A stretch of 64,000 nucleotides of DNA from an uncultured Candidatus Planktophila sp. (GCA_964576975.1 CAZNWM010000002.1:3811-67810), one strand, 5' to 3'; shown: positions 3,771 to 38,932, counted from the stretch's first letter. Translations and numbers: made by a program. The notes: generated by a model from the letters alone, not told the origin.

Positions 3771-4169
3771 ATGTCGCTCACACCTGATTGGCAGTTATTG
3801 CATGCAACGGCAATTGCTGCGAGCAAAAAAGCCTATGCTCCGTATTCAAAATTTCCAGTAGGTGTTGCAGGATTAGTAAGCGATGGGCGAATAGTCAGTG
3901 GCTGCAACGTTGAAAACGCTAGCTATGGCCTTGGTTTGTGCGCCGAATGCAGCATGACTTCAGAATTGATAATGAGTGGTGGTGGACGCTTGGTCGCTGT
4001 TCTCTGCGTAGATGCTCAAGGTGATTACTTGGCACCTTGCGGACGCTGCAGACAACTTCTTTTTGAACACGGTGGCAATGAGTTGTTACTCATGACGCCA
4101 GATGGACCAATGAAAATGTCAACGATTTTGCCATGGGCATTTGGTCCCGATGATTTAGATCGTAATTAA
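3771..4169 (+). CDS. cdd: Cytidine deaminase (homotetrameric type)
   Basis: AYAPYSKFPVG, GCNVEN, CAE and PCGRCRQ zinc motifs. Confidence 0.95.
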   Translation: MSLTPDWQLLHATAIAASKKAYAPYSKFPVGVAGLVSDGRIVSGCNVENASYGLGLCAECSMTSELIMSGGGRLVAVLCVDAQGDYLAPCGRCRQLLFEHGGNELLLMTPDGPMKMSTILPWAFGPDDLDRN

Positions 4170-4175
4170 CTTTAA

Positions 4176-5465: not shown

Positions 5466-5484
5466 AATTGGTGAAAAAGTGAGC

Positions 5485-6573
5485 ATGCAGAGTATTCCAA
5501 CAGTAGATCAAATTAAACGAGTTCCAAAAGTCCTTTTGCATGATCACTTAGATGGCGGTCTTCGTCCACAAACGATTATTGATATCGCCAAAAGAATTGG
5601 ATATACCGCACTGCCAACAATGGATGCAGATGAATTAGCAACGTGGTTTCGTGAATCATGCGACTCGGGCTCACTGGTTCGCTATCTGGAAACTTTTAGC
5701 CACACAATTGCGGTAATGCAGACAGAAGAAAACATTATTCAAGTAGCTCGTGAGTGTGCACTTGATCTCGCACGAGACGGTGTTGTTTATGCTGAAGTTC
5801 GCGGTGCGCCGGAGTTGTTTACTGAACAAGGTCTCACTCTTGAACAAGTTGTTCAGGCGACTCTTGCTGGTTATCGCGAAGGCGAAGAGATCGCACGTAA
5901 AGAAGGATTTAATATTCAAGTTCGAGCACTCTTATGCGGTATGCGACAAAATAACCGATCACAAGAAGTCGCCGAACTCGTGGTTAAGTATCGTGACAAA
6001 GGCGTTGTTGGCTTTGATATTGCTGGACCAGAAGATGGATTTCCACCGTCAAACCAACAGGAAACCTTCGAATATCTTCGTCGCGAAGATGCTCACTTCA
6101 CAATTCACGCAGGCGAAGCATATGGACTTCCTTCTATCTGGGAAGCAATTCAGTTGTGCGGGGCAGAACGTCTAGGCCATGGGGTAAGAATTATTGATGA
6201 CATAGATGTTTCTGGCCCAGAACCAAAGTTGGGACAACTGGCTTCATATATTCGAGATCGCAGAATTCCTCTAGAACTCTGTCCTACATCTAATTTGCAA
6301 ACTGGTGCCGCAAAAAACATTGCACAGCACCCAATTGGAGTATTGGCTAAATTGCGTTTTCGCGTAACGTTAAATACTGACAATCGCCTTATGAGCCAAA
6401 CTTCAATGTCTTATGAAATGACTGAAGTTGTTAGGGCATTTAAGTGGGATTTTACTGATTTGCAGAGAGTGACAATTAATGGAATGAAGAGTGCATTCAT
6501 CCCTTACCCAGAACGGCTTGAGATAATTGAAAAGATCATTAAGCCAGGATATGCAGCGATTGCATCTGAATAA
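5485..6573 (+). CDS. add: Adenosine deaminase
   Basis: [20 protein letters not shown] and NTDNRLMS motifs. Start placed at ATG 5485 to avoid overlap with deoA (GTG 5479 is also possible). Confidence 0.93.
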
Positions 6574-7767
6574 ATGATTGATTTTCTCGATCACAAATTC
6601 ATCGAAAATCCTTATCCAGCATTAGAGAAGTTGCGCAGAGAAGGCAAACCTGTCTGGCATGAGGGTGTTGGGATGTATCTAGCTGCGCGCTATGAAGACG
6701 CTAATAACGTGCTTCGCACGAAATCTCTGGGAAGAATATTCAAGGCAAAAGAACCTGAATTTGAGTGGGATGTATTTAACTGGCTTCATTCAGATTCAAT
6801 CCTAGATAGCGAACCACCTAAGCACACACGCTTGCGCTCATTAGTTGCCAAAGCATTTAATCGAAACAAGATTGAAAGCCAAAGACCAGCGATTGAGAAG
6901 ATTACAAATGAATTGCTCGACGCCATAGAATTTAAAGTTCGCGCAGGTCAAACTTTTGATGTGATCTCAGATTATGCCGAACCACTACCGGTTAAAGTCA
7001 TCGCCGCACTCTTAGGATTTCCAGCGGAGGATGAGCACCTTTTAAGACCTTGGTCACAATCTATTGTGAAGATGTATGAAGTTAATCCATCTGTAGAACA
7101 TCAAAATGAAGCAAAGGCAGCCGCAAAAGCATTTGCCGATTATGTACTTGGTCTCATGCTTGAACGCAAGAAAAATCCTGGTACAGATTTGATTAGCGAT
7201 CTTGCTGCCGTTGAAGAGAGTGGGGAGACGTTAAGCGCACACGAACTGGTAGCAACGTGCGTTCTCTTACTTAATGCCGGTCATGAGGCAAGTGTTAATG
7301 CATTTGGAAACGGAATGGTTGCTGCCTTGTCGCGCCCAGATCAAGCAGCGTTATTGCGCACCAAATCACGGGAAATAGCAGAGACCGCTGTTGAAGAGTT
7401 CTTAAGATTCGATGCCCCGCTACATTTATTTGAGCGAACAGCAACTGCTGATACTGAAATTGGGGGAGTCACTGTTCGAGAGGGGCAGAAAATAGCGTCA
7501 TTACTCGGTTCTGCTAATCGCGACGAAAGCGTATTTGAGAACTCAAATGAGATGAATTTGTTGCGCAATCCAAATCCACATATTGGTTTTGGCGCTGGCA
7601 TTCATTTTTGTTTAGGTGGCCCGCTTGCCAGACTTGAAATGGCAATATCGCTACCCGCACTCTTTGAACGATTTAACGATATTGAATTAGCGAGCACCCC
7701 GAAGCGACGCCCAACATTTGTTCTGCGTGGTTATGAAAGTGTGGATATCTCAGCTGCAGTTGGATAA
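6574..7767 (+). CDS. Cytochrome P450
   Basis: I-helix LLNAGHEAS, K-helix EEFLR and heme motif FGAGIHFCLG; starts immediately after the add stop (TAAATG). Confidence 0.95.
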   Translation: MIDFLDHKFIENPYPALEKLRREGKPVWHEGVGMYLAARYEDANNVLRTKSLGRIFKAKEPEFEWDVFNWLHSDSILDSEPPKHTRLRSLVAKAFNRNKIESQRPAIEKITNELLDAIEFKVRAGQTFDVISDYAEPLPVKVIAALLGFPAEDEHLLRPWSQSIVKMYEVNPSVEHQNEAKAAAKAFADYVLGLMLERKKNPGTDLISDLAAVEESGETLSAHELVATCVLLLNAGHEASVNAFGNGMVAALSRPDQAALLRTKSREIAETAVEEFLRFDAPLHLFERTATADTEIGGVTVREGQKIASLLGSANRDESVFENSNEMNLLRNPNPHIGFGAGIHFCLGGPLARLEMAISLPALFERFNDIELASTPKRRPTFVLRGYESVDISAAVG

Positions 7768-8627
7768 GAAGACTGCGCACCTTTTCTGGTAACACTTAGT
7801 GCGGCAATGCGACAAGCAAATTCAGCCGAACTCTTAGGATCTAAACCTGAAGCAATTGCGAATGAGAAAGAACCTATAAAGCAATCTCCTGCACCAGTTG
7901 AGTCAACGGCTTGGACTTTTGTCGTGGCAATTGAAGTTAATCCACCATCGGTAGAAACTAAAACTGCACCCTTATCTCCTAGAGTAACTATCGAATTCTT
8001 TCCAGGGCGAAACTGTGCAAGTGATTCAGATGTTGGAGCCTTGCCAACGAATTCTTCAAATTCAACTTCGTTTGGAATTAACCAATCAGTGACAGCCAAT
8101 AACTCGGGGGAAAGATCTTCGTACGGAGCAGGATTTAGGATTGTGATTGCACCACGGTCTTTGGCAACTTTAAATGCCGCAGTGGTTACAGATTGGGGAA
8201 TTTCGCATTGACCAAGAACTATAGAGAGTTCAGGAATTGATTTAATTGCGTTGGCAGCGTGGTTTTCATCAAAGTCATGATTGGAACCAGGAACAATCAA
8301 AATTCTGTTTTGACCCTGTGCATCCACCCAGATATGGGCAACACCAGTTGGTAGATCTGAAATCTTTACGTGAGTCGAATTTATCTTTTGATTCTTGAAA
8401 TTTTCTTGTAGCGATTTACCGAAGAGGTCATTTCCTATGCATCCCACCATAAACACATCAGCACCCGCCAGGGCTGCCATAACGCCTTGGTTGGCACCTT
8501 TTCCACCAAAGCCTGTTGTAAATAGATTTCCATAAAGAGTCTGGCCAGGTTGCGGTAGAACATCGGCATAGCAAGTCAGATCCATACTTGCACTGCCTAC
8601 GACAGCGATCACGGGTGCTTTAGCCAT
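7731..8627 (-). CDS. rbsK: Ribokinase (PfkB family)
   Basis: GGKGANQ, PNEVE and DSTGAGDCFIG PfkB motifs; 3' end overlaps the P450 by 37 nt. Confidence 0.88.
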   Translation of the reverse strand: MAKAPVIAVVGSASMDLTCYADVLPQPGQTLYGNLFTTGFGGKGANQGVMAALAGADVFMVGCIGNDLFGKSLQENFKNQKINSTHVKISDLPTGVAHIWVDAQGQNRILIVPGSNHDFDENHAANAIKSIPELSIVLGQCEIPQSVTTAAFKVAKDRGAITILNPAPYEDLSPELLAVTDWLIPNEVEFEEFVGKAPTSESLAQFRPGKNSIVTLGDKGAVLVSTDGGLTSIATTKVQAVDSTGAGDCFIGSFSFAIASGLDPKSSAEFACRIAALSVTRKGAQSSYPTAAEISTLS

Positions 8628-8638
8628 GAAATAGATAA

Positions 8639-8644
8639 TAGGCT
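8639..8644 (+). promoter_or_regulatory. Probable -10 box of a leaderless transcript (nucleoside hydrolase)
   Basis: TAGGCT lies 6 nt before ATG 8651 and there is no Shine-Dalgarno. Confidence 0.55.
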
Positions 8645-8650
8645 AACTCC

Positions 8651-9598
8651 ATGAATTCCACACCCGTCATTCTTGATGTAGATACCGGAATTGATGATGC
8701 ATTCGCGGTTTTGTTCGCCGCTAGACATCCATCAATAAAATTGTTGGGCGTTACATGCGTTGACGGAAATACGAATGTGGCACAAGTTGTAGCAAACACA
8801 CTTCAGGTTCTAGATGCTGCAGGAGCAGGAGATATTCCAGTTGCACGAGGTGCTATTCGACCACTCTTAGGTCAATCACAGTACGCAGAGTATGTACATG
8901 GTGAAGATGGAATGGGTGATTTAGGTTTACCACCTTCTCGCAGAAGTGTGGATTCACGATCTGCAATTGAATTGCTCCGTGATTTAGTTGATCAATCACC
9001 TGAGCCAGTGACTCTAGTTCCTTTGGCGCCATTAACTAACATTGCCCTGTTCTTACGTGCATTTCCTGAGAGTGCAAAGAAGTTAAAGCGAATTGTTTTG
9101 ATGGGCGGTTCAGCTTCTGCAGGAAATGCAACCCCTGCTGCCGAATTTAATGTGTGGCATGACCCTGAAGCCGCTGCCATTGTTTTCCAAAGTGGAATTC
9201 CAATCACAATGTATGGACTTGATGTTTTTATGCGTCCTTGCGTCAGCGCAGAAGAAGCGGACAAACTATCTAAATCCGCCGATCCATGTGCACAATTCGC
9301 TGGAAGATTAATCAATGCATTCGTTGAACGTATTGGTTCACCAGTTACTTTGGGGGATTACGGCGCTGTAGCGAGTGTGATTGCACCAGAATTAGTTACC
9401 ACGCAGCGCTTTGATGTAGTTGTTGATACATCTGCAGGTCCTGCTCGTGGCCAAACTATTGTTGATCGCAGACCAGCTCTAGAACTAGAAATTGAACCAC
9501 TCAGATTAGAAAACGCTGCAAAAGTTGATGTAACTCTGGATTTAGATGTTGAAGGTATTCGTCAATTGTGGCTTAAAACAATTGATCCGAACTTTTAA
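8651..9598 (+). CDS. Nucleoside hydrolase (IU-NH/Rih family)
   Basis: DVDTGIDDA Ca-binding motif, HGEDG, APLTN and AEFNVWHDPEAA; the C-terminal HD motif reads GD. Confidence 0.9.
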   Translation: MNSTPVILDVDTGIDDAFAVLFAARHPSIKLLGVTCVDGNTNVAQVVANTLQVLDAAGAGDIPVARGAIRPLLGQSQYAEYVHGEDGMGDLGLPPSRRSVDSRSAIELLRDLVDQSPEPVTLVPLAPLTNIALFLRAFPESAKKLKRIVLMGGSASAGNATPAAEFNVWHDPEAAAIVFQSGIPITMYGLDVFMRPCVSAEEADKLSKSADPCAQFAGRLINAFVERIGSPVTLGDYGAVASVIAPELVTTQRFDVVVDTSAGPARGQTIVDRRPALELEIEPLRLENAAKVDVTLDLDVEGIRQLWLKTIDPNF

Positions 9599-10444
9599 CT
9601 AAACGCCTATGGGGTGCCAGACCGTCTTGGACTCCATAAAGGCCAAGATTCGCGCAGGTGAAGAAATTTCTTTAAATGAGTGAATTCTCTTTAAGTTTTG
9701 CGCACCCGCTTTTTTAACTTCTGCAACTAACTTTGACTCTAAGCCAGATATATCTAAGCCATCGATATCCATGTGAGAAGCAAACCATGGAGCAAGCTCG
9801 GCACTCTTTCCAGTCAAGATGTTTACAACACCTGCAGGAACATCACTAGTTGCAATAACTTCTGCAAGGCTCATTGCAGGCAGAGGAGCACTCTCACTTG
9901 CAAGGACAATCACTGTATTTCCACTAGCGATTATTGGTGCGATACCTGCAACAAATCCAAGGAGTGCAGACTTCTTTGGGGCAATAAATCCCACAACCCC
10001 AAGTGCTTCGGGAATTGTGAAGTTGTAATAAGGCCCAGCGACCGGGTTTGTTGCACCGTCTAGTGCACTGATTTTATCTGTCCAACCCGCATACCAAACT
10101 AGAAGATCGATACTTGCTTCAACTTCATCCTGTGCTTTCTTTGGAGTAACTCCAGTGATTTCGCAAATTTCTGCAGCGAATTGATCGCATCGACCTTCGA
10201 GCATTTCAGCAATTCGGTAAAGGATTTGCCCACGGTTATATGCAGTTGCGTGCGCCCAACCTGATTGCGCAGCACGCGCAGCAACGACTGCATCCTTTAG
10301 ATCTTTGCGAGATGCTAAACATGGATTTGCAATGAATTCACCACGTGCATTTTTGACTTCATATGTGCGACCAGATTCAGTGCGCGGAAATGTTCCACCA
10401 ATAAATAACTTGTATGTCTTTTTCACATCAATGCGCTTACTCAT
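9599..10444 (-). CDS. Truncated aldehyde dehydrogenase-like protein (Rossmann domain only)
   Basis: 281 aa with KLFIGG, W-Y-A-G-W-x-D-K and AGVVNILTG of the ALDH NAD-binding domain. It lacks the ELGGK Glu and the catalytic-Cys domain. Confidence 0.85.
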   Translation of the reverse strand: MSKRIDVKKTYKLFIGGTFPRTESGRTYEVKNARGEFIANPCLASRKDLKDAVVAARAAQSGWAHATAYNRGQILYRIAEMLEGRCDQFAAEICEITGVTPKKAQDEVEASIDLLVWYAGWTDKISALDGATNPVAGPYYNFTIPEALGVVGFIAPKKSALLGFVAGIAPIIASGNTVIVLASESAPLPAMSLAEVIATSDVPAGVVNILTGKSAELAPWFASHMDIDGLDISGLESKLVAEVKKAGAQNLKRIHSFKEISSPARILAFMESKTVWHPIGV

Positions 10445-11876
10445 GAGTTACTCCTTTGAGATAAGCAGTCAGACCATGGCGACCGCCTTCACGCCCCCAA
10501 CCAGACTCTTTGTATCCACCAAATGGACTTGTTGGATCAAATTTATTGAATGTATTTGTCCAGATAACACCAGCCTTTAACTTCTGTGCTGCCCAGAGAG
10601 TCTTAGATCCCTTATCGCTCCAGACACCAGCTGATAATCCAAAGGGAGTGTTATTTGCTTTATCGATACCCTCTTGTGGAGTGCGAAATGTTAAAACAGA
10701 TAGAACTGGTCCAAAGATTTCCTCGCGTGCGATTCTGTGAGATTGAGTAACGCCAGTAAAGATCGTTGGAGCAAACCAGAAACCCTTATCTGGCATTGAA
10801 CACTGTGGACTCCAACGCTCTGCACCTTCGGCGTCGCCGGCAAGTGATAACTCTTTGATTTTCTCTAATTGAGAACGTGAATTAATTGCGCCCAAATCTG
10901 TGTTCTTATCTAAAGGATCTCCCACGCGAATTTTTTCCATGCGCTTCTGTAACTTCTTAATGAACTCATTAGAGATGCTCTCTTGAATAATAAGTCTTGA
11001 CCCCGCGCAGCAGACGTGACCTTGGTTAAAGAAAATTCCATTAACGATTCCTTCTACGCTCTCATCAATAGCAGCATCTTCAAAGACGATATTTGCTGCT
11101 TTACCACCAAGTTCGAGAGTCACACTCTTTGATGTTCCTGCAACTGATTCAGCGATGATTTTTCCAACTTCAGTCGAACCGGTAAATGCAATTTTGTTAA
11201 TGCCAGGATGATTCACAATCAGAGCACCAGTTGATCCATCGCCGGTAACAATGTTTACAACTCCTGCAGGTAATCCTGCTTGCTCACATACTTCTGCGAA
11301 TAGCAGTGCGGTCAGGGGCGTGGTTTCAGCAGGTTTAAGTACAACTGTGTTGCCGGTGGCAAGGGCGGGAGCCACTTTCCACGCCAACATCAAAAGTGGA
11401 AAATTCCAAGGAATAATCTGTCCTACAACTCCGTGAGGTTTTGCTTTAGTTCCAACACCGGCAAATTCGAGTTTGTCTGCCCAGCCCGCGTGATAAAAAA
11501 AGTGCGCAGCAGCAAGTGGAACATCAACATCACGTGATTCTCTAATCGGTTTTCCATTGTCTAAACTTTCAAGGACTGCAAATTCGCGCGCACGTTCTTG
11601 CAGAATTCGAGCTATGCGAAAAAGGTACTTTCCACGTTCGCGCCCTGAAAGTTTGGACCAATGTATATCCAAAGCTTTCTTGGCAGCCTTAACTGCTGCA
11701 TCAATATCTTTTTTGCTGCCGAGTGCAATAGAACTAAGGACTTCTTCGGTGGCAGGGTTAATTGTTGGGAAGTGCTTTTCGCCTGCAACGAATTTTCCAC
11801 CGATGTAATGCCCGTACTTGGGCTTGATGGAGACGCTGGCGCGAGATTCAGGCGCCGGTGCATATTCGAAAGTCAT
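10437..11876 (-). CDS. Aldehyde dehydrogenase (full length)
   Basis: IIPWNFP, KPAE, FTGST, LELGGKA, GHVCCAGSR (catalytic Cys), EEIFGP and PFGGYKESG. Confidence 0.95.
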   Translation of the reverse strand: MTFEYAPAPESRASVSIKPKYGHYIGGKFVAGEKHFPTINPATEEVLSSIALGSKKDIDAAVKAAKKALDIHWSKLSGRERGKYLFRIARILQERAREFAVLESLDNGKPIRESRDVDVPLAAAHFFYHAGWADKLEFAGVGTKAKPHGVVGQIIPWNFPLLMLAWKVAPALATGNTVVLKPAETTPLTALLFAEVCEQAGLPAGVVNIVTGDGSTGALIVNHPGINKIAFTGSTEVGKIIAESVAGTSKSVTLELGGKAANIVFEDAAIDESVEGIVNGIFFNQGHVCCAGSRLIIQESISNEFIKKLQKRMEKIRVGDPLDKNTDLGAINSRSQLEKIKELSLAGDAEGAERWSPQCSMPDKGFWFAPTIFTGVTQSHRIAREEIFGPVLSVLTFRTPQEGIDKANNTPFGLSAGVWSDKGSKTLWAAQKLKAGVIWTNTFNKFDPTSPFGGYKESGWGREGGRHGLTAYLKGVTHE

Positions 11877-11889
11877 GCGAAATTCTCCA

Positions 11890-12846
11890 TTAATCGATAG
11901 TCACGTACTGAGGACTAGCGTAGTAGCCATCATCCATTTTCATGCGTTGCATCAATAAATCATTAAGAAGTGCGCTGGCGCCAATTCTAAAAAGAGATGG
12001 AGTTAGCCACTCTGGACCCGCAGTCTCATTAACCAATACCAATTGCTTGATTGCATCCTTGGTGTTGCGAATTCCGCCCGCAGGTTTTACGCCAATGCGC
12101 ACGCCTGCCATTTCATAGAAATCACGAACAGCCTCAAGCATGACAAGTACGACAGGGGGAGTAGCTGCAGGCGCAACTTTGCCTGTTGAAGTTTTGATGA
12201 AATCCGCTCCGGCTAGCATCGCTAAATAAGAAGCCTTTCGAACGTTGTCATAAGTAACCAATTCGCCAGTTTCAAAGATAACTTTTAGGTGGGCTTTTTC
12301 CCCACAAATCTCTTTAATCGCAACTATTTCATTAAACACTTCTATGTAATTGCCCGATAAAAAAGCACCGCGATCGATAACCATATCAATTTCGCCAGCA
12401 CCGGCATCTAAAGCATCTTGTGTATCTTGAATCTTAACTTTCATTGACGCACGACCAGATGGAAATGCAGTTGAAACAGCGGCAACTGGCACGTGCGCGC
12501 CACCGATTGCATCTAAATGTTTTCTGGCAACTGAAACCATGTCGTTGTACACGCAGACTGCACCAACACTTGGAACACTTAAATCAGTGGGATCTGGTCG
12601 AACCGCTTTCGAACACAGTGCCTGAACTTTTCCTACGGTGTCAGCTCCTTCAAGCGTTGTTAAGTCCACCATTGTGATTGCAGTATCAATAGCCCATCTC
12701 TTACTTGTGGTTTTTATGCTTCTAGTAGCAAGCATCGCAGCGCGAGCATCTGCACCAACTGCGTCGACACCAGGTAGTTTATTTAGAAACTCTTTTAAAG
12801 ATGAATCAGAACCATCAATGAGGCCGTAGTACTTCATGCACCTCAT
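11890..12846 (-). CDS. deoC: Deoxyribose-phosphate aldolase
   Basis: DLTTLEG, EIDMVI, LKVIFETGEL, FIKTSTGK and GVKPAGGIR. Exact start uncertain (12846 or 12837). Confidence 0.95.
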   Translation of the reverse strand: MRCMKYYGLIDGSDSSLKEFLNKLPGVDAVGADARAAMLATRSIKTTSKRWAIDTAITMVDLTTLEGADTVGKVQALCSKAVRPDPTDLSVPSVGAVCVYNDMVSVARKHLDAIGGAHVPVAAVSTAFPSGRASMKVKIQDTQDALDAGAGEIDMVIDRGAFLSGNYIEVFNEIVAIKEICGEKAHLKVIFETGELVTYDNVRKASYLAMLAGADFIKTSTGKVAPAATPPVVLVMLEAVRDFYEMAGVRIGVKPAGGIRNTKDAIKQLVLVNETAGPEWLTPSLFRIGASALLNDLLMQRMKMDDGYYASPQYVTID

Positions 12847-12874
12847 CCATTCCCGCTTGATTGAAGCATCTGAA

Positions 12875-14491
12875 CTAAGAGAGTAATTCTCTCAGTGAAG
12901 GGCGTAATTGTTCAAGTAGGGACATTGCAATGGTTTTTTCAGAGTTAACTACTTCTATGTAGCACTTGATCTTCGGCTCAGTACCGCTTGGGCGGATGAT
13001 AATTCGAATGTTCTGTTCTAGCGTGAATCGAAGTCCATCTGTTGGGGGCAAAGAATTTGCAGGCTTTGCTAAATCATCCATTGATGCAACCTTAAATCCA
13101 GCAATTTCCAAGAGTGGATTTGTGCGTAATTTATTCATAATGGTCGAGATAAGAGCAATGTCAGTCACACGAATAGAAATCTGTTCTGTTGCGTGAAAAC
13201 CATAGGTATCCCAGATTTCATCTAGTAAATCAATGAGAGTCTTTCCCTCACTCTTTAGATCAGTTGCAATTTGAGAGAGCAATAATGCCGCAGATATACC
13301 ATCTTTATCATTAACTGTATGTGAATCAACACAGAATCCAATTGCTTCTTCATATCCAAAAATCAGGTTAGGAATCTTGGCAATGTACTTAAAGCCGGTG
13401 AGCGTTTCTACAAAATCTAAATTGTGAGCAGTAGCGATTTTAGACAGAACTGAAGATGAAACTATTGAGTTTGCCAGAGTTCCAGATTGTGTACTTTTTG
13501 CGATAACTTCACCAAGAATTGCGCCAACTTCATCTCCACGAAGCGCTCTCCACCCGAGATCACGATCTTTAATTGCCACCGAGCAACGGTCAGCATCAGG
13601 ATCGTTTGCAATCACCAAATCTGCATCAAAAGTTTTTGCTGTTTCAAGCGCCAGGTCGAGTGCTCCTGACTCTTCGGGATTAGGAAATGGCAATGTTGGA
13701 AAATCAGGATCTGGTTGCGCTTGAGATTGAACAAGAATTAGGGATGGAAAACCTGCGCGATGAAAAACACGTTGCAAAGTTTTGGTGCCAACACCATGCA
13801 TAGCTGTGTAAACAATCTTTAGGTCACCTGGTCGTGGCGCTAGAACTTTTGTTCGATCGATGTATTTTTCGACAATATCTTCATCAAGAATCTGCCAGCT
13901 CGAACTTCGTGTCACTTCTTTGAGTGATTTAATGCTCTTAATGTGAGCTGACATTTGTTTATCCGCAGGAGAAATTATCTGAGAGCCGCGGTAAGTAACT
14001 CCATCAACTTCGCCACCCAAATAAACTTTGTAGCCATTATCGCTTCCAGGATTGTGGCTAGCGGTGACCATAATTCCAACGTCTGCACCCAATTCATTTA
14101 CTGCAAAAGCGAGTACGGGTGTTGGCAAAGGGCGTGGCAACACTGAAACATTAAGACCAGCACCACTAAAAATCTCAGCACTTATGCGTTCAAAAACTTC
14201 TGATCCATGTCTAGCATCGCGCCCAATCACAACGGATGTAAGTGCACGCTCTTTCATGTATTTAACAATTCCAGCTGCAGTTTTTCCCACAACGGCTTGA
14301 TTCATGCATGAAGGACCAGGTCCAAGTGGACCCCGCAAACCAGCAGTGCCGAACTCCAGGAACCCTGCGAAAAATTTACGTAGAGTTACTTCATCTGCTG
14401 CTTCAATGAGTGCGTTTAACTCTGCAACTGTTTTTGGATCTGGATCATCTTCAATCCATGCACGAACTTCGGCGAGAAGATTTGAATCCAT
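12875..14491 (-). CDS. Phospho-sugar mutase (alpha-D-phosphohexomutase family), probable phosphopentomutase
   Basis: FGTAGLRG, TASHNP (phospho-Ser), DPDADR, GYEEAIG and RPSGTEPKIK; lies between PNP and deoC. Confidence 0.88.
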   Translation of the reverse strand: MDSNLLAEVRAWIEDDPDPKTVAELNALIEAADEVTLRKFFAGFLEFGTAGLRGPLGPGPSCMNQAVVGKTAAGIVKYMKERALTSVVIGRDARHGSEVFERISAEIFSGAGLNVSVLPRPLPTPVLAFAVNELGADVGIMVTASHNPGSDNGYKVYLGGEVDGVTYRGSQIISPADKQMSAHIKSIKSLKEVTRSSSWQILDEDIVEKYIDRTKVLAPRPGDLKIVYTAMHGVGTKTLQRVFHRAGFPSLILVQSQAQPDPDFPTLPFPNPEESGALDLALETAKTFDADLVIANDPDADRCSVAIKDRDLGWRALRGDEVGAILGEVIAKSTQSGTLANSIVSSSVLSKIATAHNLDFVETLTGFKYIAKIPNLIFGYEEAIGFCVDSHTVNDKDGISAALLLSQIATDLKSEGKTLIDLLDEIWDTYGFHATEQISIRVTDIALISTIMNKLRTNPLLEIAGFKVASMDDLAKPANSLPPTDGLRFTLEQNIRIIIRPSGTEPKIKCYIEVVNSEKTIAMSLLEQLRPSLRELLS

Positions 14492-14495
14492 AAAC

Positions 14496-15326
14496 CTAGA
14501 GTAACTTCGGAATTACTTCCTTGAGAAGAGTTCCCATGCGAGTTGCTGCGGCTTTTCCAGCGGCAATAACTTCTTCGTGATTGAGTTTTTCTCCTGTTAC
14601 ACCTGCAGCAGCATTTGTTACTAGGGAGATTCCAAGAACTTCTGCACCTAATGCGTGCGCTGCGATTGCTTCTGGAACTGTAGACATTCCAACTAAATCT
14701 GCGCCCATAGCTCTCATCATCAGAATCTCAGCAGGCGTTTCATATGTTGGTCCGCGCCAATGGACGTAGACACCTTCTGCTAGTGATGAATCTGCGCTCT
14801 TCACAATAGATCTGATGCGCTTGCTGTATAGATCAGTTAAATCAACAAAGTGCGCCCCGATTAGTGGTGATGTTGCAGTGAGAGAAATATGGTCACGAAT
14901 CAAAACTGGTTGACCGACCGAATAATCTTTATTAATTCCGCCACATGCATTTGTAAGAATAACCACTTTGCAACCAGATTTAACGGCAGTTCTGACGCCA
15001 TGAACAACAGGTTCGATTCCTTTGCCTTCATATAAATGTGTACGTCCAAGAAAAACAAGTGCCCGTAAAACTTTGTCCCCACTCTTTATGGAATAGGAAC
15101 GAATCTTTCCTGAGTGACCTTCGACAGCAGGTGGAAGAAATCCAGTGATTTCATCAGCGTTGCATTCGTAATCTGGCGTACCGAGTGCTGAAACTGCATC
15201 GACCCATCCAGAACCCATAACTAATGCGATGTCATGAGAAATTACGCCTGTGCGTTTGGCAATATCAGCCGCGGCTTGTTCGGCAGCCTTCAATGGATCG
15301 CTATAGAGCAGTTGGTCACTTGTCAT
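14496..15326 (-). CDS. punA: Purine-nucleoside phosphorylase (trimeric PNP-I type)
   Basis: VMGSG, GRTHLYEG, LTNACGG, GPTYETPAE, GMSTVPE and SLVTN. Confidence 0.93.
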   Translation of the reverse strand: MTSDQLLYSDPLKAAEQAAADIAKRTGVISHDIALVMGSGWVDAVSALGTPDYECNADEITGFLPPAVEGHSGKIRSYSIKSGDKVLRALVFLGRTHLYEGKGIEPVVHGVRTAVKSGCKVVILTNACGGINKDYSVGQPVLIRDHISLTATSPLIGAHFVDLTDLYSKRIRSIVKSADSSLAEGVYVHWRGPTYETPAEILMMRAMGADLVGMSTVPEAIAAHALGAEVLGISLVTNAAAGVTGEKLNHEEVIAAGKAAATRMGTLLKEVIPKLL

Positions 15327-15352: not shown

Positions 15353-15955
15353 TCATTTCATTAACTTCACTTCTGGCCAGCTATATCCAAGTTGATTCAT
15401 CGCGCTACGAAGAAAAGGCATTGAGATACCAACAACATTTGTGTAGTCACCTTCGATAGTTGGAATGAAAGGGGAGCTGTAACCATCGAGAGTAAAGCCA
15501 CCCGCTACGTGGAGAGGTTCACCAGAATTAATGTAATCATCTATTTCAGCATCTGACATATCTGCAAAAGTGACTTTCGTAGTTATTCGATCACTTATCT
15601 CTCGCCCTTGGCTTGTATCGATCACACAATGACCCGTATGCAAATATCCGGATTTTCCTCGAACTCTTTGGGCCCGCTGCCTAGCAACGTGTGCAACACC
15701 GGGCTTGCCGAGTGATTCACCTTCGAATTCAAAGGTTGAGTCGCAACCAATAATGATTGCTGGAAAATCGATTTGTTCACGAATTGTGTGCGCTTTAGTG
15801 ATTGCCAATGCAATAACCATGTCTTGAGGTGCCATGGCATTAAAGAAATCCGTTTCCTCATCAACATGACTCACCATGATTTGTGGAAACAGCCCAGCAG
15901 ACTCCAAGAGTCTGCGTCTAGAAGTTGATTGAGAAGCAAGAATAATTTTTGGCAT
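15353..15955 (-). CDS. maf: Maf-family nucleoside triphosphate pyrophosphatase
   Basis: ILASQSTSRR, GCDS, GKP, AGGFTLDG and NVVG. Confidence 0.9.
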   Translation of the reverse strand: MPKIILASQSTSRRRLLESAGLFPQIMVSHVDEETDFFNAMAPQDMVIALAITKAHTIREQIDFPAIIIGCDSTFEFEGESLGKPGVAHVARQRAQRVRGKSGYLHTGHCVIDTSQGREISDRITTKVTFADMSDAEIDDYINSGEPLHVAGGFTLDGYSSPFIPTIEGDYTNVVGISMPFLRSAMNQLGYSWPEVKLMK

Positions 15956-16023
15956 TTAGTTATCTTGCCCTGAATCACGGTCCATACCCGTACGGTACTA
16001 GTGGAGGGTATTGAATTACGTCA

Positions 16024-16986
16024 GTGGCGAGCCAAGCCGCCAATAAGATAACTTCTGTGAAATCTGAATACCCAGTCGTTGGCGTAATTGGCGCAGGCCA
16101 ACTCGCACGAATGATGATTGGGCCAGCAACAGCGTTGGGCATTAAGTTAATTCCGTTCGCATCAAGTAACGAAGATAGCGCTGCACAAGTAACGCATTGC
16201 GTGATTGGTGATTACAAAGATCTTGAAGCAGTAAAGAAATTCGCACAACAGTGCGATGTTGTCACCTTCGAGCACGAACTAGTTCCCTTAAGCATCATAA
16301 AAGCCTTAGAAGTATCTGGCGTAAGAGTCCGTCCAGGATCTGAAACTCTCGAGCATTCACGCCAGAAAAAGAACACCGCAGATTCAATAGATTTTGATTA
16401 CGAAATTGCTGTACTCGTTGCCCGTTCGCCACACGCTCAAGCAACTACTTGGGCACCAACACACGTAGTTAAGAGTGACGGAGTATGCACGATGACAATT
16501 ACTCCGGTACCTCACATGAGCACTCAGATGAACGAACAGGCACAAAAAATTGCACTAGATACTGCTGCGAAAGTAAAACTGATTGGCGTAATGGAAGTTC
16601 AGATTCTTGTAAAAAATGAAGAATTACTTGTGAATAAACTTGTCATGCACCCAAGTACTTCAGGTTATTGGAGTATTGACGCTTCACGAACGAGCCAATT
16701 CGAACAGCATCTTCGTGCAATTCTTGATCTTCCACTCGGCGATCCATCCATGACAAATGACTTCGCCGTAATGGGAAACATTGTCGGAAAGAATAAGACC
16801 GATATGTATCGCCCATACCTTCACTTAATGGCGCGAAACCCTTCGCTCAAGTTTCATATGTATTCAAAGCACGTACGTCCAGGTCTTGAGGTTGGTCACA
16901 TCAACGCTTTTGGAAAAGACCTTGCAGAATTGCAATCAGAAATAGAGCACGCTGTTGATTACATGAGTGGAGAAATTGATGAATGA
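16024..16986 (+). CDS. purK: PurK (N5-CAIR synthase) homolog with internal deletion of the ATP-grasp B domain and altered catalytic motifs
   Basis: IGAGQLARMM, TFEHE, ARSPH, SQFEQHLRAILDLPLG and actinobacterial C-terminus DMYRPYLHLMAR. The K-x-x-R-G-G-Y-D-G-K-G segment is absent. Function doubtful. Confidence 0.8.
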   Translation: MASQAANKITSVKSEYPVVGVIGAGQLARMMIGPATALGIKLIPFASSNEDSAAQVTHCVIGDYKDLEAVKKFAQQCDVVTFEHELVPLSIIKALEVSGVRVRPGSETLEHSRQKKNTADSIDFDYEIAVLVARSPHAQATTWAPTHVVKSDGVCTMTITPVPHMSTQMNEQAQKIALDTAAKVKLIGVMEVQILVKNEELLVNKLVMHPSTSGYWSIDASRTSQFEQHLRAILDLPLGDPSMTNDFAVMGNIVGKNKTDMYRPYLHLMARNPSLKFHMYSKHVRPGLEVGHINAFGKDLAELQSEIEHAVDYMSGEIDE

Positions 16987-16998
16987 TGCCGAAAAGAA

Positions 16999-17394
16999 TT
17001 ACTTTTTGCGGTACTCAATCGCAGGACACCTATCCATAATTGCTGTTAAACCAGCAGCCTCTGCCTTCGCAACTGACTCTGCATCAATTACTCCAAGCTG
17101 AAGCCAGATAGCTTTGGCGCCGAGTGCGATAGCAACGTCGACTTGAGGGGCTACAAGCTCTGAATTAATAAAGAAATCAACCACATCAACCTTTACTGGA
17201 ATTTCTTCAAGTGTTGCGTACCCTTTTTCACCATGCACAGTTTCGGCCTTAGGGTGAACCGGAATAATCGTGTGACCCTTTTGCTTTAGAAGCGCTGCTA
17301 CCGAATAAGCCGCACGATCAGGGTTATTACTGAGTCCTAAAATTGCCCACGTTTTGTACTGAAGTACCCGATTGATTTCTTCTTGCGTGTTAAT
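16999..17394 (-). CDS. CoA-binding protein (YccU-like)
   Basis: The frame stays open upstream of the 79-aa track ORF: INTQEEINRVLQYKTWAILGLSNNPDRAAY...IIPVHP...WLQLG...MDRCP. The only start-like codon before the domain is ATT at 17394. Confidence 0.85.
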   Translation of the reverse strand: MNTQEEINRVLQYKTWAILGLSNNPDRAAYSVAALLKQKGHTIIPVHPKAETVHGEKGYATLEEIPVKVDVVDFFINSELVAPQVDVAIALGAKAIWLQLGVIDAESVAKAEAAGLTAIMDRCPAIEYRKK

Positions 17395-18700
17395 CGGTCC
17401 GACCTAACGCATGAAATTTCCATCCAGAAGCTCGCCACTTATCGCGGTCCAGTGCATTTCTGCCATCAATAACAATTTTTTTACGGACAAGTGATGCCAG
17501 TGCTTTTGGATCTAATTCGCGATATTCGCGCCATTCGGTCAGGTGCAGAATCAAATCTGAATCCTTCACACACTCTTCAACACTTACCGCAAAGCCAAGC
17601 TTTGGGAAACGCTTACGAGCATTCTCGATTGCTTTTGGATCGTGAACAACAACTGCAGCACCTGCCGCCTGTAATTGTGCGGCGATATCTAACGCTGGAG
17701 AATCTCGAACATCATCGCTATCTGGTTTAAATGCAGCACCGAGTACGGCAATCTTGTATGAAGTGAGATCTTCTGTGAGTTCAGCGCGAACAACATCAAT
17801 TACTCGCTGACGGGCTCGCAAGTTAATCGCATCGATTTCCCGCAAAAATTCGAGAGCCTGCTTAGCGCCTAACTCTTCTGCGCGAGCCATAAATGCACGG
17901 ATATCTTTTGGAAGACATCCACCACCAAAGCCAATACCTGCTTGCAAGAAACGGTTTCCGATTCTTGGGTCATAACCAATTGCCTTAGCAAGCACGGTTA
18001 CATCACCACCGGCTGCTTCACACACTTCAGCCATCGCATTGATAAATGAAATTTTGGTTGCAAGGAAGGAGTTTGCAGCAACCTTGACTAACTCTGATGT
18101 TGGAAGATCTGCTCTAATCCATGGCGTACCTAGATCAATAACTGGCTTATAAACCTCTTTAAGAACATCTTCTGCACGATCATTGGCAACTCCGACAACT
18201 AAACGATTTGGAGTTAGCGTGTCTTCAACAGCGAAACCTTCTCGCAAAAACTCTGGATTCCAAGCCAAATCTGATTGTGGCGCACTCTGCGCTAATTGAT
18301 CGCGCAATCCTTGTGCAGTTCCAACTGGAACTGTTGATTTTCCAACTACTAGTGAACCCTTTTTCAAATAGGGAGCGATTGCTGCGACTGCTGATTTAAC
18401 GTAGGTAAGGTCTGCTGCTAATCCATCTTTGCTCTGTGGTGTTCCTACGCAAATAAAGTGAACATCGGCATCTGCAACAGCCGAGAAATCAGTTGTGAAT
18501 GTGAGGCGACCCGTTTTTATCTCGCTTGCAAGTAAAGAATCAAGTCCAGGTTCATAGAAAGGCAACTCACCTTTTGAGAGTAACGCGATCTTTTCAGGAT
18601 CTGTATCAACCCCGATAACTTCAAATCCCAAGGAAGACATACAAGCGGCGTGTGTAGCTCCTAAATAACCACAACCAACAACTGAGAGCTTTAGCGCCAT
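17390..18700 (-). CDS. ugd: UDP-glucose 6-dehydrogenase
   Basis: VVGCGYLG, FICVGTP, KSTVPVGT, NPEFLREG, GFGGGCLPKD and FKPDSDDVRDSP. Confidence 0.93.
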   Translation of the reverse strand: MALKLSVVGCGYLGATHAACMSSLGFEVIGVDTDPEKIALLSKGELPFYEPGLDSLLASEIKTGRLTFTTDFSAVADADVHFICVGTPQSKDGLAADLTYVKSAVAAIAPYLKKGSLVVGKSTVPVGTAQGLRDQLAQSAPQSDLAWNPEFLREGFAVEDTLTPNRLVVGVANDRAEDVLKEVYKPVIDLGTPWIRADLPTSELVKVAANSFLATKISFINAMAEVCEAAGGDVTVLAKAIGYDPRIGNRFLQAGIGFGGGCLPKDIRAFMARAEELGAKQALEFLREIDAINLRARQRVIDVVRAELTEDLTSYKIAVLGAAFKPDSDDVRDSPALDIAAQLQAAGAAVVVHDPKAIENARKRFPKLGFAVSVEECVKDSDLILHLTEWREYRELDPKALASLVRKKIVIDGRNALDRDKWRASGWKFHALGRTD

Positions 18701-18707
18701 AGTGAGA

Positions 18708-18713
18708 ATCCTA
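18708..18713 (-). promoter_or_regulatory. Probable leaderless -10 box for ugd
   Basis: TAGGAT (minus strand) lies 7 nt before the ugd ATG; its TAG is also the LCP stop codon. Confidence 0.5.
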
Positions 18714-19823
18714 TTTCAGTTCTCCGCATGGATTTTCATCAGCGGTTCGTGTCTTGAATTTATCGATGATTGTTTTCTCTGGCTTAGCAGTTGCAGACGC
18801 ATTAGGTGATGGGACTACTTCATCAACAATTGGCAGATCATCTCGCAATCTCTGAAAGAGTTCACCGGCTAGAACTGGATCCCAAGTAACAACTGATCCA
18901 ACACCTTCTGCGTATGCGTTTGGATTGTCAATTGGAACAGTCAGTGTTCGAACTTTGCTCGCAGATAAGTTACGCAATTGCTTAGCAAGAGTCAGTAAAT
19001 CTGATTCATTTAATGCTGAATCGGTTTTGACTGTAGAAATTGCAGCATTAAAGAAATTCACAAGTTTAATTGGGTTTAGCAAAACCCCTGTGCTCGTTGC
19101 TTTTCTAAGTACAGAACTCATGAATTGTTGCTGGCGCTGCATACGCCCGATGTCACCTAGTCCATCAATGTCTCGAGTTCGAACATACTTAAGTGATTCG
19201 ATTCCGTTAAGTGTATGAACTCCAGCGGCAAGCACGAGATGGCTCTTTGGATCATCAATGTCCTTCTTCGTACAGACTTCAATACCGCCCAGTGCATCAA
19301 CAATCTTGGCGAATCCCGCAAAGTTGATTTCGATGTAGTGATCAATACGTAGGTTTGTCGCAAGTTCTACAGTTTCAATTAACAGAGGTGCGCCACCCCA
19401 TGCAAAGGCGGCATTAATCTTTGATTTACTCACACCAATATCTTTTGTGCCATCAGAACTGCGATGCGCAGGAATTGTGACGAGCGAATCTCTAGGTAGC
19501 GAAACAATCATTGCCTTATCACGCGCTTTGCTTATGTGAACAAGTAACATCGTGTCAGAACGACCACCAGCGGCAGTCTTTGTACTTCCAACACGAAGCA
19601 CCTTCATCTGCTCTTTAGTGAGCCCTTCTCGCGTATCTGAACCAACAAGCAAATAGTTCAGAGCTTTAGAAGTTTTCTCAGGACGAGAATCTAATTTTCC
19701 AAATACGTCAATTCGCTTAATCGAGCCACTGACCTGACCAAGGGCTAACCAAGAAAAAGCAGATACGAGTACAACGCTTACTGATAAAACAGTGAGCGCC
19801 TTAATTCCTCGCGTAGTATTCAC
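18711..19823 (-). CDS. LCP (LytR-CpsA-Psr) family glycopolymer transferase
   Basis: N-terminal TM, LLVGSD, GRSDTMLL, SLPRDS, KINAA, YVRTR and GRMQRQQ. Confidence 0.93.
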   Translation of the reverse strand: MNTTRGIKALTVLSVSVVLVSAFSWLALGQVSGSIKRIDVFGKLDSRPEKTSKALNYLLVGSDTREGLTKEQMKVLRVGSTKTAAGGRSDTMLLVHISKARDKAMIVSLPRDSLVTIPAHRSSDGTKDIGVSKSKINAAFAWGGAPLLIETVELATNLRIDHYIEINFAGFAKIVDALGGIEVCTKKDIDDPKSHLVLAAGVHTLNGIESLKYVRTRDIDGLGDIGRMQRQQQFMSSVLRKATSTGVLLNPIKLVNFFNAAISTVKTDSALNESDLLTLAKQLRNLSASKVRTLTVPIDNPNAYAEGVGSVVTWDPVLAGELFQRLRDDLPIVDEVVPSPNASATAKPEKTIIDKFKTRTADENPCGELK

Positions 19824-38839: not shown

Positions 38840-38932
38840 TGCGGCCAATCGTAGAGGTAAATGCCTTCAAATTGGCAGTGCTCTGGTGAGTACGGCAGAA
38901 TAAGCACATACTCACTCACATTCAGGACGGTT

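What the first reader, a model, noticed from the sequence alone, without database searches (positions are those of the whole stretch)
16024..16986. Intact but catalytically gutted PurK, with purE missing from its usual place
Between SRQKK and DFDYE roughly 60-70 aa (the whole ATP-grasp B domain with KxxRGGYDGKG) are cleanly deleted in frame. The active-site NELAxRPHNSGH reads NKLVMHPSTSGY, and RKVGH reads LEVGH. The frame is nevertheless open, and the N- and C-terminal segments are well preserved, including the actinobacterial MY..YLH.MAR.P block. purE, normally directly downstream, is absent. This suggests a pseudo-enzyme kept for a non-catalytic role (scaffold, ligand sensor) or a recent relic in an organism that relies on purine salvage.
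Basis: partly seen in the sequence, partly recalled or inferred. Interest (0 to 1): 0.68.

Follow-up and report, generated by a model that had tools for sequence, protein, structure and literature searches.

The report
Conserved dead PurK lacking its ATP lid
This gene is a catalytically dead, lid-less copy of the purine enzyme PurK that abundant freshwater actinobacteria keep intact under selection, so it probably has a non-enzymatic job, and pipelines that label it PurK may overstate purine self-sufficiency.

Summary
Window 16024..16986(+) encodes a 320-aa PurK homologue. It lacks the 61-aa ATP-grasp B domain, most catalytic and substrate-binding residues are changed, and purE is absent downstream.

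It is neither an artefact nor a fresh relic. All 17 short-form loci from independent assemblies have intact frames and none has purE downstream. All full-length relatives with enough downstream flank have purE.

The B domain was lost at least three times, with different junctions. A profile search found about 27 clusters (50% identity) of short candidates; all 26 that I aligned lack the domain.

dN/dS is 0.12-0.24, clearly below 1, against 0.065-0.105 for full-length PurK. Relaxation is confined to the catalytic loop, the junction and the RPGRK motif. The A domain and two C-domain blocks (TSQFEQHLRAILDLPLG, DMYRPYLHLMARxP) stay as constrained as in active enzymes.

AlphaFold models keep the PurK A+C fold. 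Metatranscriptome contigs cover the gene.

Best reading: a selectively maintained pseudoenzyme with a non-catalytic binding or scaffold role. That role is inferred, not shown. I could not test whether these genomes are purine auxotrophs. Two deep lineages keep purE next to a dead PurK.

The parts
16024..16986 (+). Pseudo-PurK ORF, 320 aa, or 309 aa if the GTG at 16057 is the start. It has the PurK A and C domains but no B domain.
   Evidence: AlphaFold2 pLDDT 84, pTM 0.84; Foldseek TM 0.84 to PurK crystal structures
16078..16353 (+). A domain (pre-ATP-grasp, residues 19-110). Constraint is unchanged compared with active PurK (pN/pS 0.18 against 0.16).
16363..16386 (+). Deletion junction (residues about 114-121, QKKNTADS). 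This is where the 61-aa B domain carrying Lys120 and Asp127 (E. coli numbering) is missing. It is the least constrained stretch (pN/pS 0.59).
16630..16671 (+). Degenerate catalytic loop VNKLVMHPSTSGYW, which reads INELAMRPHNSGHW in all 63 full-length relatives. The Mg ligand Glu is now Lys, the catalytic Arg is now His, and the His is now Ser.
   Evidence: about 10-fold relaxation (pN/pS 0.38 against 0.04)
16684..16746 (+). Conserved block SRTSQFEQHLRAILDLPLGDP (residues 221-241), as constrained as in active enzymes.
16795..16863 (+). Conserved block KTDMYRPYLHLMARNPSLKFHMY (residues 258-280). It is nearly invariant across all Nanopelagicales-type short and long forms and is absent from E. coli PurK.
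16876..16899 (+). Degenerate AIR-binding motif RPGLEVGH, which reads RPGRKIGH in all full-length relatives (Arg313 and Lys314 in E. coli numbering).
16987..16998 (.). A 12-nt spacer at the place where purE (about 507 nt) sits in all full-length relatives with enough downstream flank.
15353..15955 (-). maf, the divergent upstream neighbour. Synteny is conserved with long-form loci.
16999..17394 (-). CoA_binding_2 gene, the convergent downstream neighbour. Its probable ATT start overlaps the stop of the UDP-glucose dehydrogenase gene.
53..15326 (.). Nucleoside uptake and salvage cluster: ABC transporter, cytidine deaminase, thymidine phosphorylase, adenosine deaminase, P450, ribokinase, nucleoside hydrolase, two aldehyde dehydrogenase ORFs, deoC, phosphopentomutase-like PGM/PMM, and purine nucleoside phosphorylase.

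Best explanation
The gene encodes a pseudoenzyme derived from PurK (N5-CAIR synthetase). An in-frame deletion removed the ATP-grasp B domain, and afterwards nearly all catalytic and substrate-binding residues drifted, so it cannot make N5-CAIR (shown from sequence). The remaining A and C domains are still a folded protein that purifying selection maintains (shown). It is one member of a large family of lid-less PurK-like proteins that occupy the ancestral purK locus in Nanopelagicales-type freshwater actinobacteria and arose repeatedly (shown). The part that stays constrained is the A domain plus two C-domain blocks and an acidic C-terminus. Some of these are lineage-specific and are not needed for canonical PurK chemistry. 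The inferred mechanism is this. Full-length PurK in this group already carried a second, non-catalytic function on that surface, most likely binding other proteins as a scaffold or hub of purine-nucleotide enzymes. When PurK chemistry became dispensable, because of purine salvage or CO2-driven N5-CAIR formation, selection removed the ATP-consuming lid and kept the binding module.
For: Dead enzyme. The B domain with Lys120 and Asp127 is deleted. Fourteen functional positions are invariant in all 63 full-length relatives. Among short forms Gln11, Glu153, Glu226, Asn237, Glu238, Arg242, His244, Arg313 and Lys314 vary, and in the window seven of these nine are changed while Gln11 and Asn237 are kept (nine of the residues are listed in PMC3261824, and the other five come from my own recollection of the E. 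coli PurK structures). NCBIfam scores fall below cut-off.

Maintained by selection. All 17 short-form loci found by a DNA-level search have intact frames. dN/dS is 0.14-0.24 in unsaturated pairs, with binomial p from 1e-3 to 1e-17 for w<1, and 0.12 in one near-saturated pair (dS 0.97, p 6e-29). This is similar to birA in the same genome pairs (0.20-0.23), and compares with 0.065-0.105 for full-length PurK. Relaxation is confined to the junction, the catalytic loop and RPGRK. The A domain and blocks 221-241 and 258-280 are as constrained as in active enzymes.

Recurrence. There are three independent deletions with different junctions in the PurK tree, and a second short clade persists down to 72% identity. 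About 27 clusters at 50% identity are short candidates. All 26 that I aligned lack the B domain, and most share the motifs ARSPHGQ..W.P, TSQFEQHLRAILDLPLG, DMYRPYLHLMARxP and HA..Y..G.IDE; the high-GC members do not keep the DMYRPYLHLMAR block.

Folded. AlphaFold2 gives pLDDT 84 for the window protein and 90.7 for the most degenerate member. Both match PurK structures at TM 0.81-0.85.

Transcribed. Contigs from four freshwater metatranscriptomes cover 16420-17073.

Scaffold idea. Two-hybrid work in P. aeruginosa and E. coli places PurK and PurE as hubs of the purine-enzyme interaction network (preprint 10.1101/2025.07.15.664858). In two deep lineages the dead PurK is still translationally coupled to purE.
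Against: No partner, ligand or phenotype is known, so the scaffold role is an inference. In the window lineage purE is gone and birA is not adjacent, so the obvious partners are missing from the locus. The many invariant polar residues (R134, S135, H137, Q139, T223, Q225, E227, Q228, R231, D235, K258, D260, R263, Y265, H267, R271, H278, H309, Y313) would fit a ligand site or a new catalytic site equally well. The TSQFEQHLRA helix is conserved in all PurK and PurT enzymes and may be purely structural. The RNA evidence is thin: a few short contigs, with DNA carry-over possible. Only one of the five AlphaFold models of the window protein was confident. dS is saturated for most pairs, so the dN/dS estimates rest on a few close pairs.
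Confidence: 0.6

Rival explanations
1. The protein is a new enzyme or small-molecule binding protein. It lost ATP-grasp chemistry but uses the invariant polar residues of the A/C scaffold to bind or convert a ligand without ATP, for example a purine-related nucleotide or nucleoside, and acts as a sensor or a new catalyst.
For: About 20 invariant polar or charged residues survive in short forms that are under 50% identical overall. Glu49 is kept in 17 of 17 short forms and Lys307 in 14 of 17; both are proposed AIR contacts. In the window lineage the gene ends a nucleoside salvage cluster.
Against: The other AIR contacts (Gln11, Arg313, Lys314) drift freely. The neighbourhood is ancestral actinobacterial synteny rather than a new association. 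No ligand evidence exists.
Confidence: 0.2
2. It is a decaying relic: a non-functional remnant of purK that has not yet been purged after loss of the AIR-to-CAIR steps.
For: Catalytic residues are lost, purE is deleted, and evolution is 2-3 times faster than for full-length PurK.
Against: There are no stops or frameshifts in 17 DNA-level loci, even though synonymous divergence between them is saturated. w is 0.12-0.24 and significantly below 1. Constraint at the A domain and two blocks is undiminished. Independent lineages converge on the same architecture, and deep family members below 50% identity still fold confidently. These streamlined genomes removed purE to within 12 nt yet kept this ORF.
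Confidence: 0.04
3. It is an assembly or gene-calling artefact, such as a collapsed repeat or a chimeric contig.
For: None beyond the unusual length.
Against: The same junction occurs in many independent assemblies from JGI, ENA, NCBI and Logan, and in contigs of four separate runs. Different lineages have their own junctions.
Confidence: 0.01
4. It is a split or complemented enzyme, with the B domain supplied in trans by another protein so that PurK activity persists.
For: The A and C domains are retained.
Against: The C-domain Mg ligands, the catalytic Arg and His, and the AIR-phosphate Arg/Lys are also lost. No stand-alone B-domain ORF lies in the window. purE is absent.
Confidence: 0.02

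Closest known systems
PurK, N5-carboxyaminoimidazole ribonucleotide synthetase (EC 6.3.4.18; TIGR01161 / NF004680; PDB 1b6s, 3aw8, 3k5i)
   Same: It is a clear homologue and an ortholog by position: same locus between maf/birA and the CoA-binding and UDP-glucose dehydrogenase genes. It has the same A- and C-domain fold (TM 0.84) and shares the SQFExHLRA..LPL motif.
   Different: It has no B domain. The ATP, Mg, carboxyphosphate and AIR-phosphate residues are lost, it scores below the family cut-offs, and it has no purE partner. It is not a functional member.
Pseudoenzymes (catalytically dead homologues kept for scaffolding or regulation, e.g. pseudokinases and the viral pseudo-amidotransferases reviewed in PMC7605207)
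   Same: It is a dead homologue of an enzyme that is conserved under purifying selection, with relaxation limited to catalytic positions.
   Different: It arose by orthologous replacement, not by duplication. It arose repeatedly through loss of a whole domain. No partner or function is known yet.
Domain atrophy (Prakash and Bateman 2015, PMC4432964)
   Same: A large in-frame loss of a structural unit occurred while the protein stays under selection.
   Different: That paper discusses the A domain of S. aureus PurK as an atrophied dehydrogenase-like domain within an active enzyme. Here a complete catalytic lid is lost and activity with it.
Bacterial purinosome-like network in which PurK and PurE are interaction hubs (preprint 10.1101/2025.07.15.664858)
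   Same: It provides a known non-catalytic property of PurK, namely many protein contacts and a modelled PurK:PurE:PurC 4:8:8 complex, that a dead PurK could retain.
   Different: That work was done in Pseudomonas and E. coli with active enzymes. Nothing has been tested for actinobacteria or for lid-less forms, and the window lineage lacks purE at the locus.
Loss of de novo purine synthesis in Ca. Nanopelagicus (PMC12817590)
   Same: It concerns the same bacterial order, the same streamlining context and reliance on external purines.
   Different: That paper reports pathway absence in Nanopelagicus isolates and never mentions PurK (0 occurrences). The window groups with Planktophila-like genomes whose close relatives have purK, purE and purH.

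Membership tests
PurK (N5-CAIR synthetase) | Three-domain ATP-grasp architecture (A, B, C) | tested here: not met
   The B domain is absent. The gap is 61 aa against close relatives and about 80 aa against 3aw8.
PurK (N5-CAIR synthetase) | ATP-binding residues (E. coli Arg80, Lys120, Glu153) and the base Asp127 | tested here: not met
   Lys120 and Asp127 are deleted and Glu153 is now Ala. Only the Arg80-equivalent Lys remains (residue list from PMC3261824).
PurK (N5-CAIR synthetase) | Mg-ligand and catalytic loop residues (Glu226, Asn237, Glu238, Arg242, His244) | tested here: not met
   The window reads Gln, Asn, Lys, His and Ser at these positions. All five are invariant in 63 full-length relatives. 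The functional roles of these five rest on my knowledge of the E. coli PurK structures.
PurK (N5-CAIR synthetase) | AIR-binding residues (Gln11, Glu49, Lys307, Arg313, Lys314) | tested here: inconclusive
   The window keeps Gln, Glu and Lys307, but Arg313 is now Leu and Lys314 is now Glu. Across short forms Gln11, Arg313 and Lys314 vary.
PurK (N5-CAIR synthetase) | Score above the curated equivalog cut-off | tested here: not met
   NF004680 scores 304.8 against a cut-off of 327, and TIGR01161 scores 237.1 against 318.4.
PurK (N5-CAIR synthetase) | Adjacent class I purE | tested here: not met
   There is no purE in the locus or in the window. Every full-length relative with enough downstream flank has it.
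PurK (N5-CAIR synthetase) | ATP-dependent carboxylation of AIR | not testable with these tools
   This needs an enzyme assay.
Pseudoenzyme | Homology to an active enzyme family with loss of catalytic residues | tested here: met
Pseudoenzyme | Maintained by purifying selection across species | tested here: met
   w is 0.12-0.24, with p down to 6e-29. Frames are intact in 17 loci, and deep family members remain conserved.
Pseudoenzyme | Expressed | tested here: inconclusive
   Short contigs in four metatranscriptomes cover the 3' two-thirds of the gene. There are no proteomic data.
Pseudoenzyme | Demonstrated non-catalytic function or partner | not testable with these tools
   This needs biochemistry or genetics.
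Unitary pseudogene / relic | Frame disruptions or dN/dS near 1 | tested here: not met

The most novel reading that the evidence does not exclude
PurK of Nanopelagicales, and perhaps of actinobacteria more widely, has a second function that does not depend on the purine pathway. It sits on the A/C scaffold (SPHxQ, DMYRPYLHLMARxP, the acidic C-terminus). It matters enough that lineages which abandon N5-CAIR synthesis repeatedly remove only the ATP-grasp lid and keep the rest for very long times, even after purE is lost. The lid-less proteins would then be natural separation-of-function alleles that expose a moonlighting role of a textbook enzyme.
Probability: 0.35. Interest if true: 0.8.

Novelty: new variant of a known kind. 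Interest (0 to 1): 0.62.

Why it matters
Nanopelagicales (acI) are the most abundant bacteria in freshwater lakes, and their hidden growth requirements have blocked cultivation.

First, source annotations (the JGI/IMG names) call this protein '5-(carboxyamino)imidazole ribonucleotide synthase'. Pathway reconstructions may therefore count a dead enzyme and overestimate purine prototrophy. This matters because the isolation medium of the 2025 study (PMC12817590) contained no purine precursors.

Second, the same domain was lost repeatedly while the rest of the protein stayed strongly constrained. That is a natural experiment pointing to an unrecognised non-catalytic role of PurK, and it makes that role testable by pull-downs, two-hybrid screens and structures of a small stable protein.

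Third, lineages that keep purE beside a dead PurK bear on how AIR is carboxylated without PurK in oxic freshwater.

Tried and rejected
Genome-wide inventory of pur genes in short-form genomes. This was not possible.

Laying reads to test for purE elsewhere. The runs that hold the window sequence (X1-X4, X33, X34) proved to be complex metagenomes with millions of contigs, so absence cannot be read from them.

Synteny walk to purH. The long-form contig L001 has purH and folD 10 kb upstream of purK, but the window has no folD, mdh or icd region, so the comparison fails.

Supplementary tables of PMC12817590, which hold per-genome pathway calls, are not held.

Taxon names for the deep short forms. 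The cluster look-ups carried no organism names.

Species-tree placement with UDP-glucose dehydrogenase. That protein is too conserved (94-100% identity) and the region too recombined to resolve whether short-form genomes are monophyletic.

Other negative results. Rfam found nothing in the window. The sigma-70 promoter scan found nothing at the locus. A literature search found no paper that links purK to Nanopelagicales, and none describing an ATP-grasp pseudoenzyme.

Rejected readings: artefact, recent relic and split enzyme (see rival explanations).

Full report
**What is in the sequence.** Window 16024..16986(+) is a single open frame of 320 aa, and no ORF of 60 aa or more overlaps it in any other frame.
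- Pfam finds the pre-ATP-grasp domain (residues 19-110), only the second half of the ATP-grasp domain (profile positions 75-179 at residues 121-226), and PurK_C.
- Every NCBIfam purK equivalog matches in two pieces and stays below its curated cut-off.
- Against solved PurK structures the match is also split. Query 19-112 aligns to T. thermophilus PurK 2-94 and query 122-302 aligns to 175-348.
- Aligned with the closest full-length relatives (370-381 aa), the gene lacks exactly 61 residues between Q114/K115 and the DFDYE strand, including KSISGGYDGRGVW.

I mapped 14 functional residues through an alignment with E. coli PurK. Nine are listed in PMC3261824, which cites the E. coli structures. I added the five Mg-ligand and catalytic-loop residues from my own knowledge of those structures.
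- All 14 positions are invariant in the 63 full-length relatives.
- In the window, Lys120 and Asp127 are deleted.
- Glu153, Glu226, Glu238, Arg242, His244, Arg313 and Lys314 are replaced by Ala, Gln, Lys, His, Ser, Leu and Glu.
- Among the 17 short forms these positions, and also Gln11 and Asn237, vary freely. Only Glu49 (17 of 17) and Lys307 (14 of 17) persist.

The protein therefore cannot bind ATP in the ATP-grasp manner or stabilise carboxyphosphate. That conclusion is an inference from sequence, but a strong one.

**purE and the neighbourhood.**
- In a long-form relative (L001) the order is maf, purK (381 aa), purE (168 aa, overlapping ATGA), CoA_binding_2, UDP-glucose dehydrogenase. purH and folD lie on the same contig.
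- In the window and in short-form contigs the order is identical except that purE is missing. Twelve nucleotides separate the purK stop from the stop of the convergent CoA-binding gene.
- A tblastn survey of 88 loci shows a clean association within that sample. None of the 17 short-form loci has purE downstream, and every full-length locus with enough flank has it.
- No pur gene of any kind lies in the 64-kb window.
- Upstream is a 16-kb nucleoside uptake and salvage cluster: ABC transporter, cdd, thymidine phosphorylase, adenosine deaminase, ribokinase, nucleoside hydrolase, deoC, a phosphopentomutase-like mutase and purine nucleoside phosphorylase.

**Not an artefact and not a relic.**
- The same junction is present in contigs from many independent projects and in Logan contigs of four runs.
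- A DNA-level search would also have found broken copies. It returned 17 short-form loci, and all have intact frames.
- Synonymous divergence among most of them is saturated (dS above 1.2), so a neutral 930-nt sequence would carry many stops.
- In the unsaturated pairs dN/dS is 0.24, 0.20, 0.14 and 0.19, and in one near-saturated pair (dS 0.97) it is 0.12. Binomial tests for an excess of synonymous change give p from 1e-3 to 6e-29.
- Full-length PurK in the sister clade gives 0.065-0.105. birA, an essential gene, gives 0.20-0.23 in the same genome pairs.
- The short protein thus evolves 2-3 times faster than active PurK but is clearly under purifying selection.

**Where the constraint sits.** I pooled nine pairs per clade and compared pN/pS by segment.

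| Segment | Short clade | Long clade |
|---|---|---|
| A domain | 0.18 | 0.16 |
| Residues 221-241 | 0.066 | 0.067 |
| Residues 258-280 | 0.031 | 0.043 |
| Catalytic loop 201-220 | 0.38 | 0.04 |
| Deletion junction | 0.59 | 0.10 |
| RPGRK motif | 0.43 | 0.26 |

- Constraint is unchanged in the first three segments and relaxed in the last three.
- Column entropies tell the same story. Blocks SRTSQFEQHLRAILDLPLGD and MYRPYLHLMARNPSLKFHMY are at least as conserved in short forms as in long forms.
- This is the signature of a protein that lost one function and kept another, or at least kept its fold under selection.

**Recurrence.**
- In a tree of 80 sequences the window belongs to a clade of 15 short forms, sister to long forms such as L001.
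- Two other short forms, L029 and L070, are nested among long forms elsewhere. They have different junctions, with 47 and 62 residues removed.
- The L070 type has relatives at 72-98% identity, all 310-326 aa.
- A profile search of 1.84 billion representatives found about 27 clusters at 50% identity with lengths of 273-342 aa.
- I fetched and aligned 26 of them. All lack the B domain, at varied junctions.
- Most have scrambled GxGQLxRM, catalytic-loop and RPGRK motifs, though a few (P0265, P0272, P0338) still carry near-intact loops.
- A further search seeded with one of these showed many more 288-333-aa variants in freshwater metagenomes.
- Some of these have also lost part of the A domain.
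- Across 34 such proteins, with overall identity down to about 42%, the invariant residues form ARSPH.Q..W.P, T.Q.EQ..RA..DLPLG, K.DM.RPYLHL.AR.P...FH and HA..Y......E.
- The second and part of the first motif are general PurK/PurT features. The DMYRPYLHLMAR block and the acidic C-terminus are not present in E. coli PurK.
- High-GC members of the list lack the DMYRPYLH block, so lid loss also occurs outside the Nanopelagicales-type group.

**Fold and expression.**
- AlphaFold2 on a 60-sequence alignment gives pLDDT 84 and pTM 0.84 for the window protein. Only one of the five models was confident. Confidence is low at the junction (66) and the former catalytic loop (58).
- Foldseek places that model on PurK crystal structures at query-normalised TM 0.84.
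- The most degenerate member tested (P0262, 290 aa) folds with pLDDT 90.7 in all five models and also matches PurK at TM 0.81-0.85.
- Short contigs from four independent freshwater metatranscriptomes, one of them identical to the window, cover 16420-17073. The flanking genes are barely covered. This suggests transcription, but it is thin evidence.

**Context of the deep members.** All sit at the same ancestral locus.
- L089 and L091 read birA (4-nt overlap), dead PurK, UDP-glucose dehydrogenase, with no purE.
- L090 and L092 read birA, dead PurK, purE (overlapping start), CoA-binding, UDP-glucose dehydrogenase.
- Loss of PurK chemistry therefore does not require loss of purE. The association seen in the 88-locus sample is not universal.
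- The two PurE proteins that sit beside a dead PurK both read GGAAALPG in the 70s loop. The 64 PurE proteins beside full-length PurK read GG(A/S)AHLPG. The two are closely related to each other, so this counts as one evolutionary event.

**Organism and purine status.**
- One short-form locus comes from a MAG named Candidatus Planktophila sp..
- The window shares 94-97% amino-acid identity in maf and UDP-glucose dehydrogenase with long-form genomes that carry purK, purE and purH. It is therefore most likely Planktophila-like (acI-A).
- A 2025 study reports that all Nanopelagicus species lack de novo purine synthesis. It also notes that its isolation medium had no purine precursors, and it never mentions PurK (PMC12817590).
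- An earlier study found de novo nucleotide synthesis complete in four acI strains (PMC5301498).
- I could not determine whether the window's genome lacks the other pur genes. Purine auxotrophy is plausible but unproven.

**How it most likely works.**
- Shown: the ATP-grasp chemistry is gone; the protein is maintained by selection; the constraint maps to the A domain and specific C-domain blocks; the same outcome arose repeatedly.
- Inferred: the retained module has a non-catalytic role that full-length PurK of this group already had. Removing the lid abolishes a now useless ATPase while preserving that role.
- The most concrete candidate is protein binding. Two-hybrid maps in P. aeruginosa and E. 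coli place PurK and PurE as hubs among purine-nucleotide enzymes, and a PurK:PurE:PurC complex has been modelled (preprint 10.1101/2025.07.15.664858). Enzymes of that network such as PurA, PurB and GuaB remain essential in salvage-dependent cells (this last point rests on established knowledge of purine interconversion).
- A ligand-sensing role or a new catalytic role cannot be excluded, given the many invariant polar residues.

**Comparison with what is known, and novelty.**
- The protein is a positional ortholog of PurK but fails the defining features of the enzyme family. It should not be annotated as N5-CAIR synthetase.
- It fits the general concept of a pseudoenzyme and of domain atrophy (PMC4432964).
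- I found no paper describing lid-less PurK proteins or linking purK to Nanopelagicales.
- I rate it a new variant of a known kind: a large pseudoenzyme family derived from PurK by recurrent loss of the B domain.

**Unexplained.** The history of the short allele is decoupled from its flanks.
- Between the window and L002 or L010, purK dS is 0.05-0.13 while neighbouring genes show 0.4-1.3.
- Between the window and L012, neighbours are 96-99% identical in protein but the short PurK is only 72% identical, with dS 1.1.
- Recombination clearly moves alleles between lineages. Whether this reflects sweeps, balancing selection or chance is open.

Noticed in passing
window 16999..17394 (-); also L001, L002, L003, L008, L012, L014-L016, L019-L021, L035, L076: The CoA_binding_2 gene encodes the full Pfam domain but has no ATG, GTG or TTG before it. 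A conserved ATT codon overlaps the TAA stop of the upstream UDP-glucose dehydrogenase gene (GATTAAT) in at least 15 related loci. This suggests ATT initiation with translational coupling. Gene callers truncate the protein to 79-100 aa.
   Followed up: partly
window 9599..10444 (-): A 281-aa ORF matches only the N-terminal half of aldehyde dehydrogenase (Pfam profile 7-233 of 461). It lies beside a full 479-aa aldehyde dehydrogenase. It is conserved in L002 and L003, probably also in L092 where the ORF runs off the locus end, and is under strong constraint (dN/dS 0.059, window against L002). It may be a second truncated-enzyme case in the same cluster.
   Followed up: partly
L090:1614-2126 and L092:10884-11396: The two PurE proteins encoded directly after a dead, lid-less PurK carry GGAAALPG (His to Ala in the 70s loop). 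All 64 PurE proteins next to full-length PurK have GG(A/S)AHLPG. The SAHRMP and MGSDSD motifs are intact. This may be an adaptation to working without PurK, or the beginning of decay.
   Followed up: partly
window 15353..19823 compared with L002, L010 and L012: The divergence of the short purK allele is decoupled from its flanks. It is much younger than the neighbours against L002 and L010 (dS 0.05-0.13 against 0.4-1.3). It is much older against L012 (dS 1.1 and 72% amino-acid identity, against 96-99% identity in the flanks). This indicates allele exchange by recombination.
   Followed up: partly
window 53..15326: A contiguous 16-kb nucleoside uptake and salvage cluster with an embedded cytochrome P450 (6574..7767). 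The close long-form relative L001 lacks the aldehyde dehydrogenase, deoC, PGM and PNP segment between the nucleoside hydrolase gene and maf.
   Followed up: partly
window 38861..43649: A MoeZ-like ThiF-rhodanese gene followed by a mycothiol-type set (PIG-L deacetylase, cysteinyl-tRNA-synthetase-like ligase, GNAT acetyltransferase). This looks like ordinary actinobacterial synteny. It was annotated with Pfam only.
   Followed up: no
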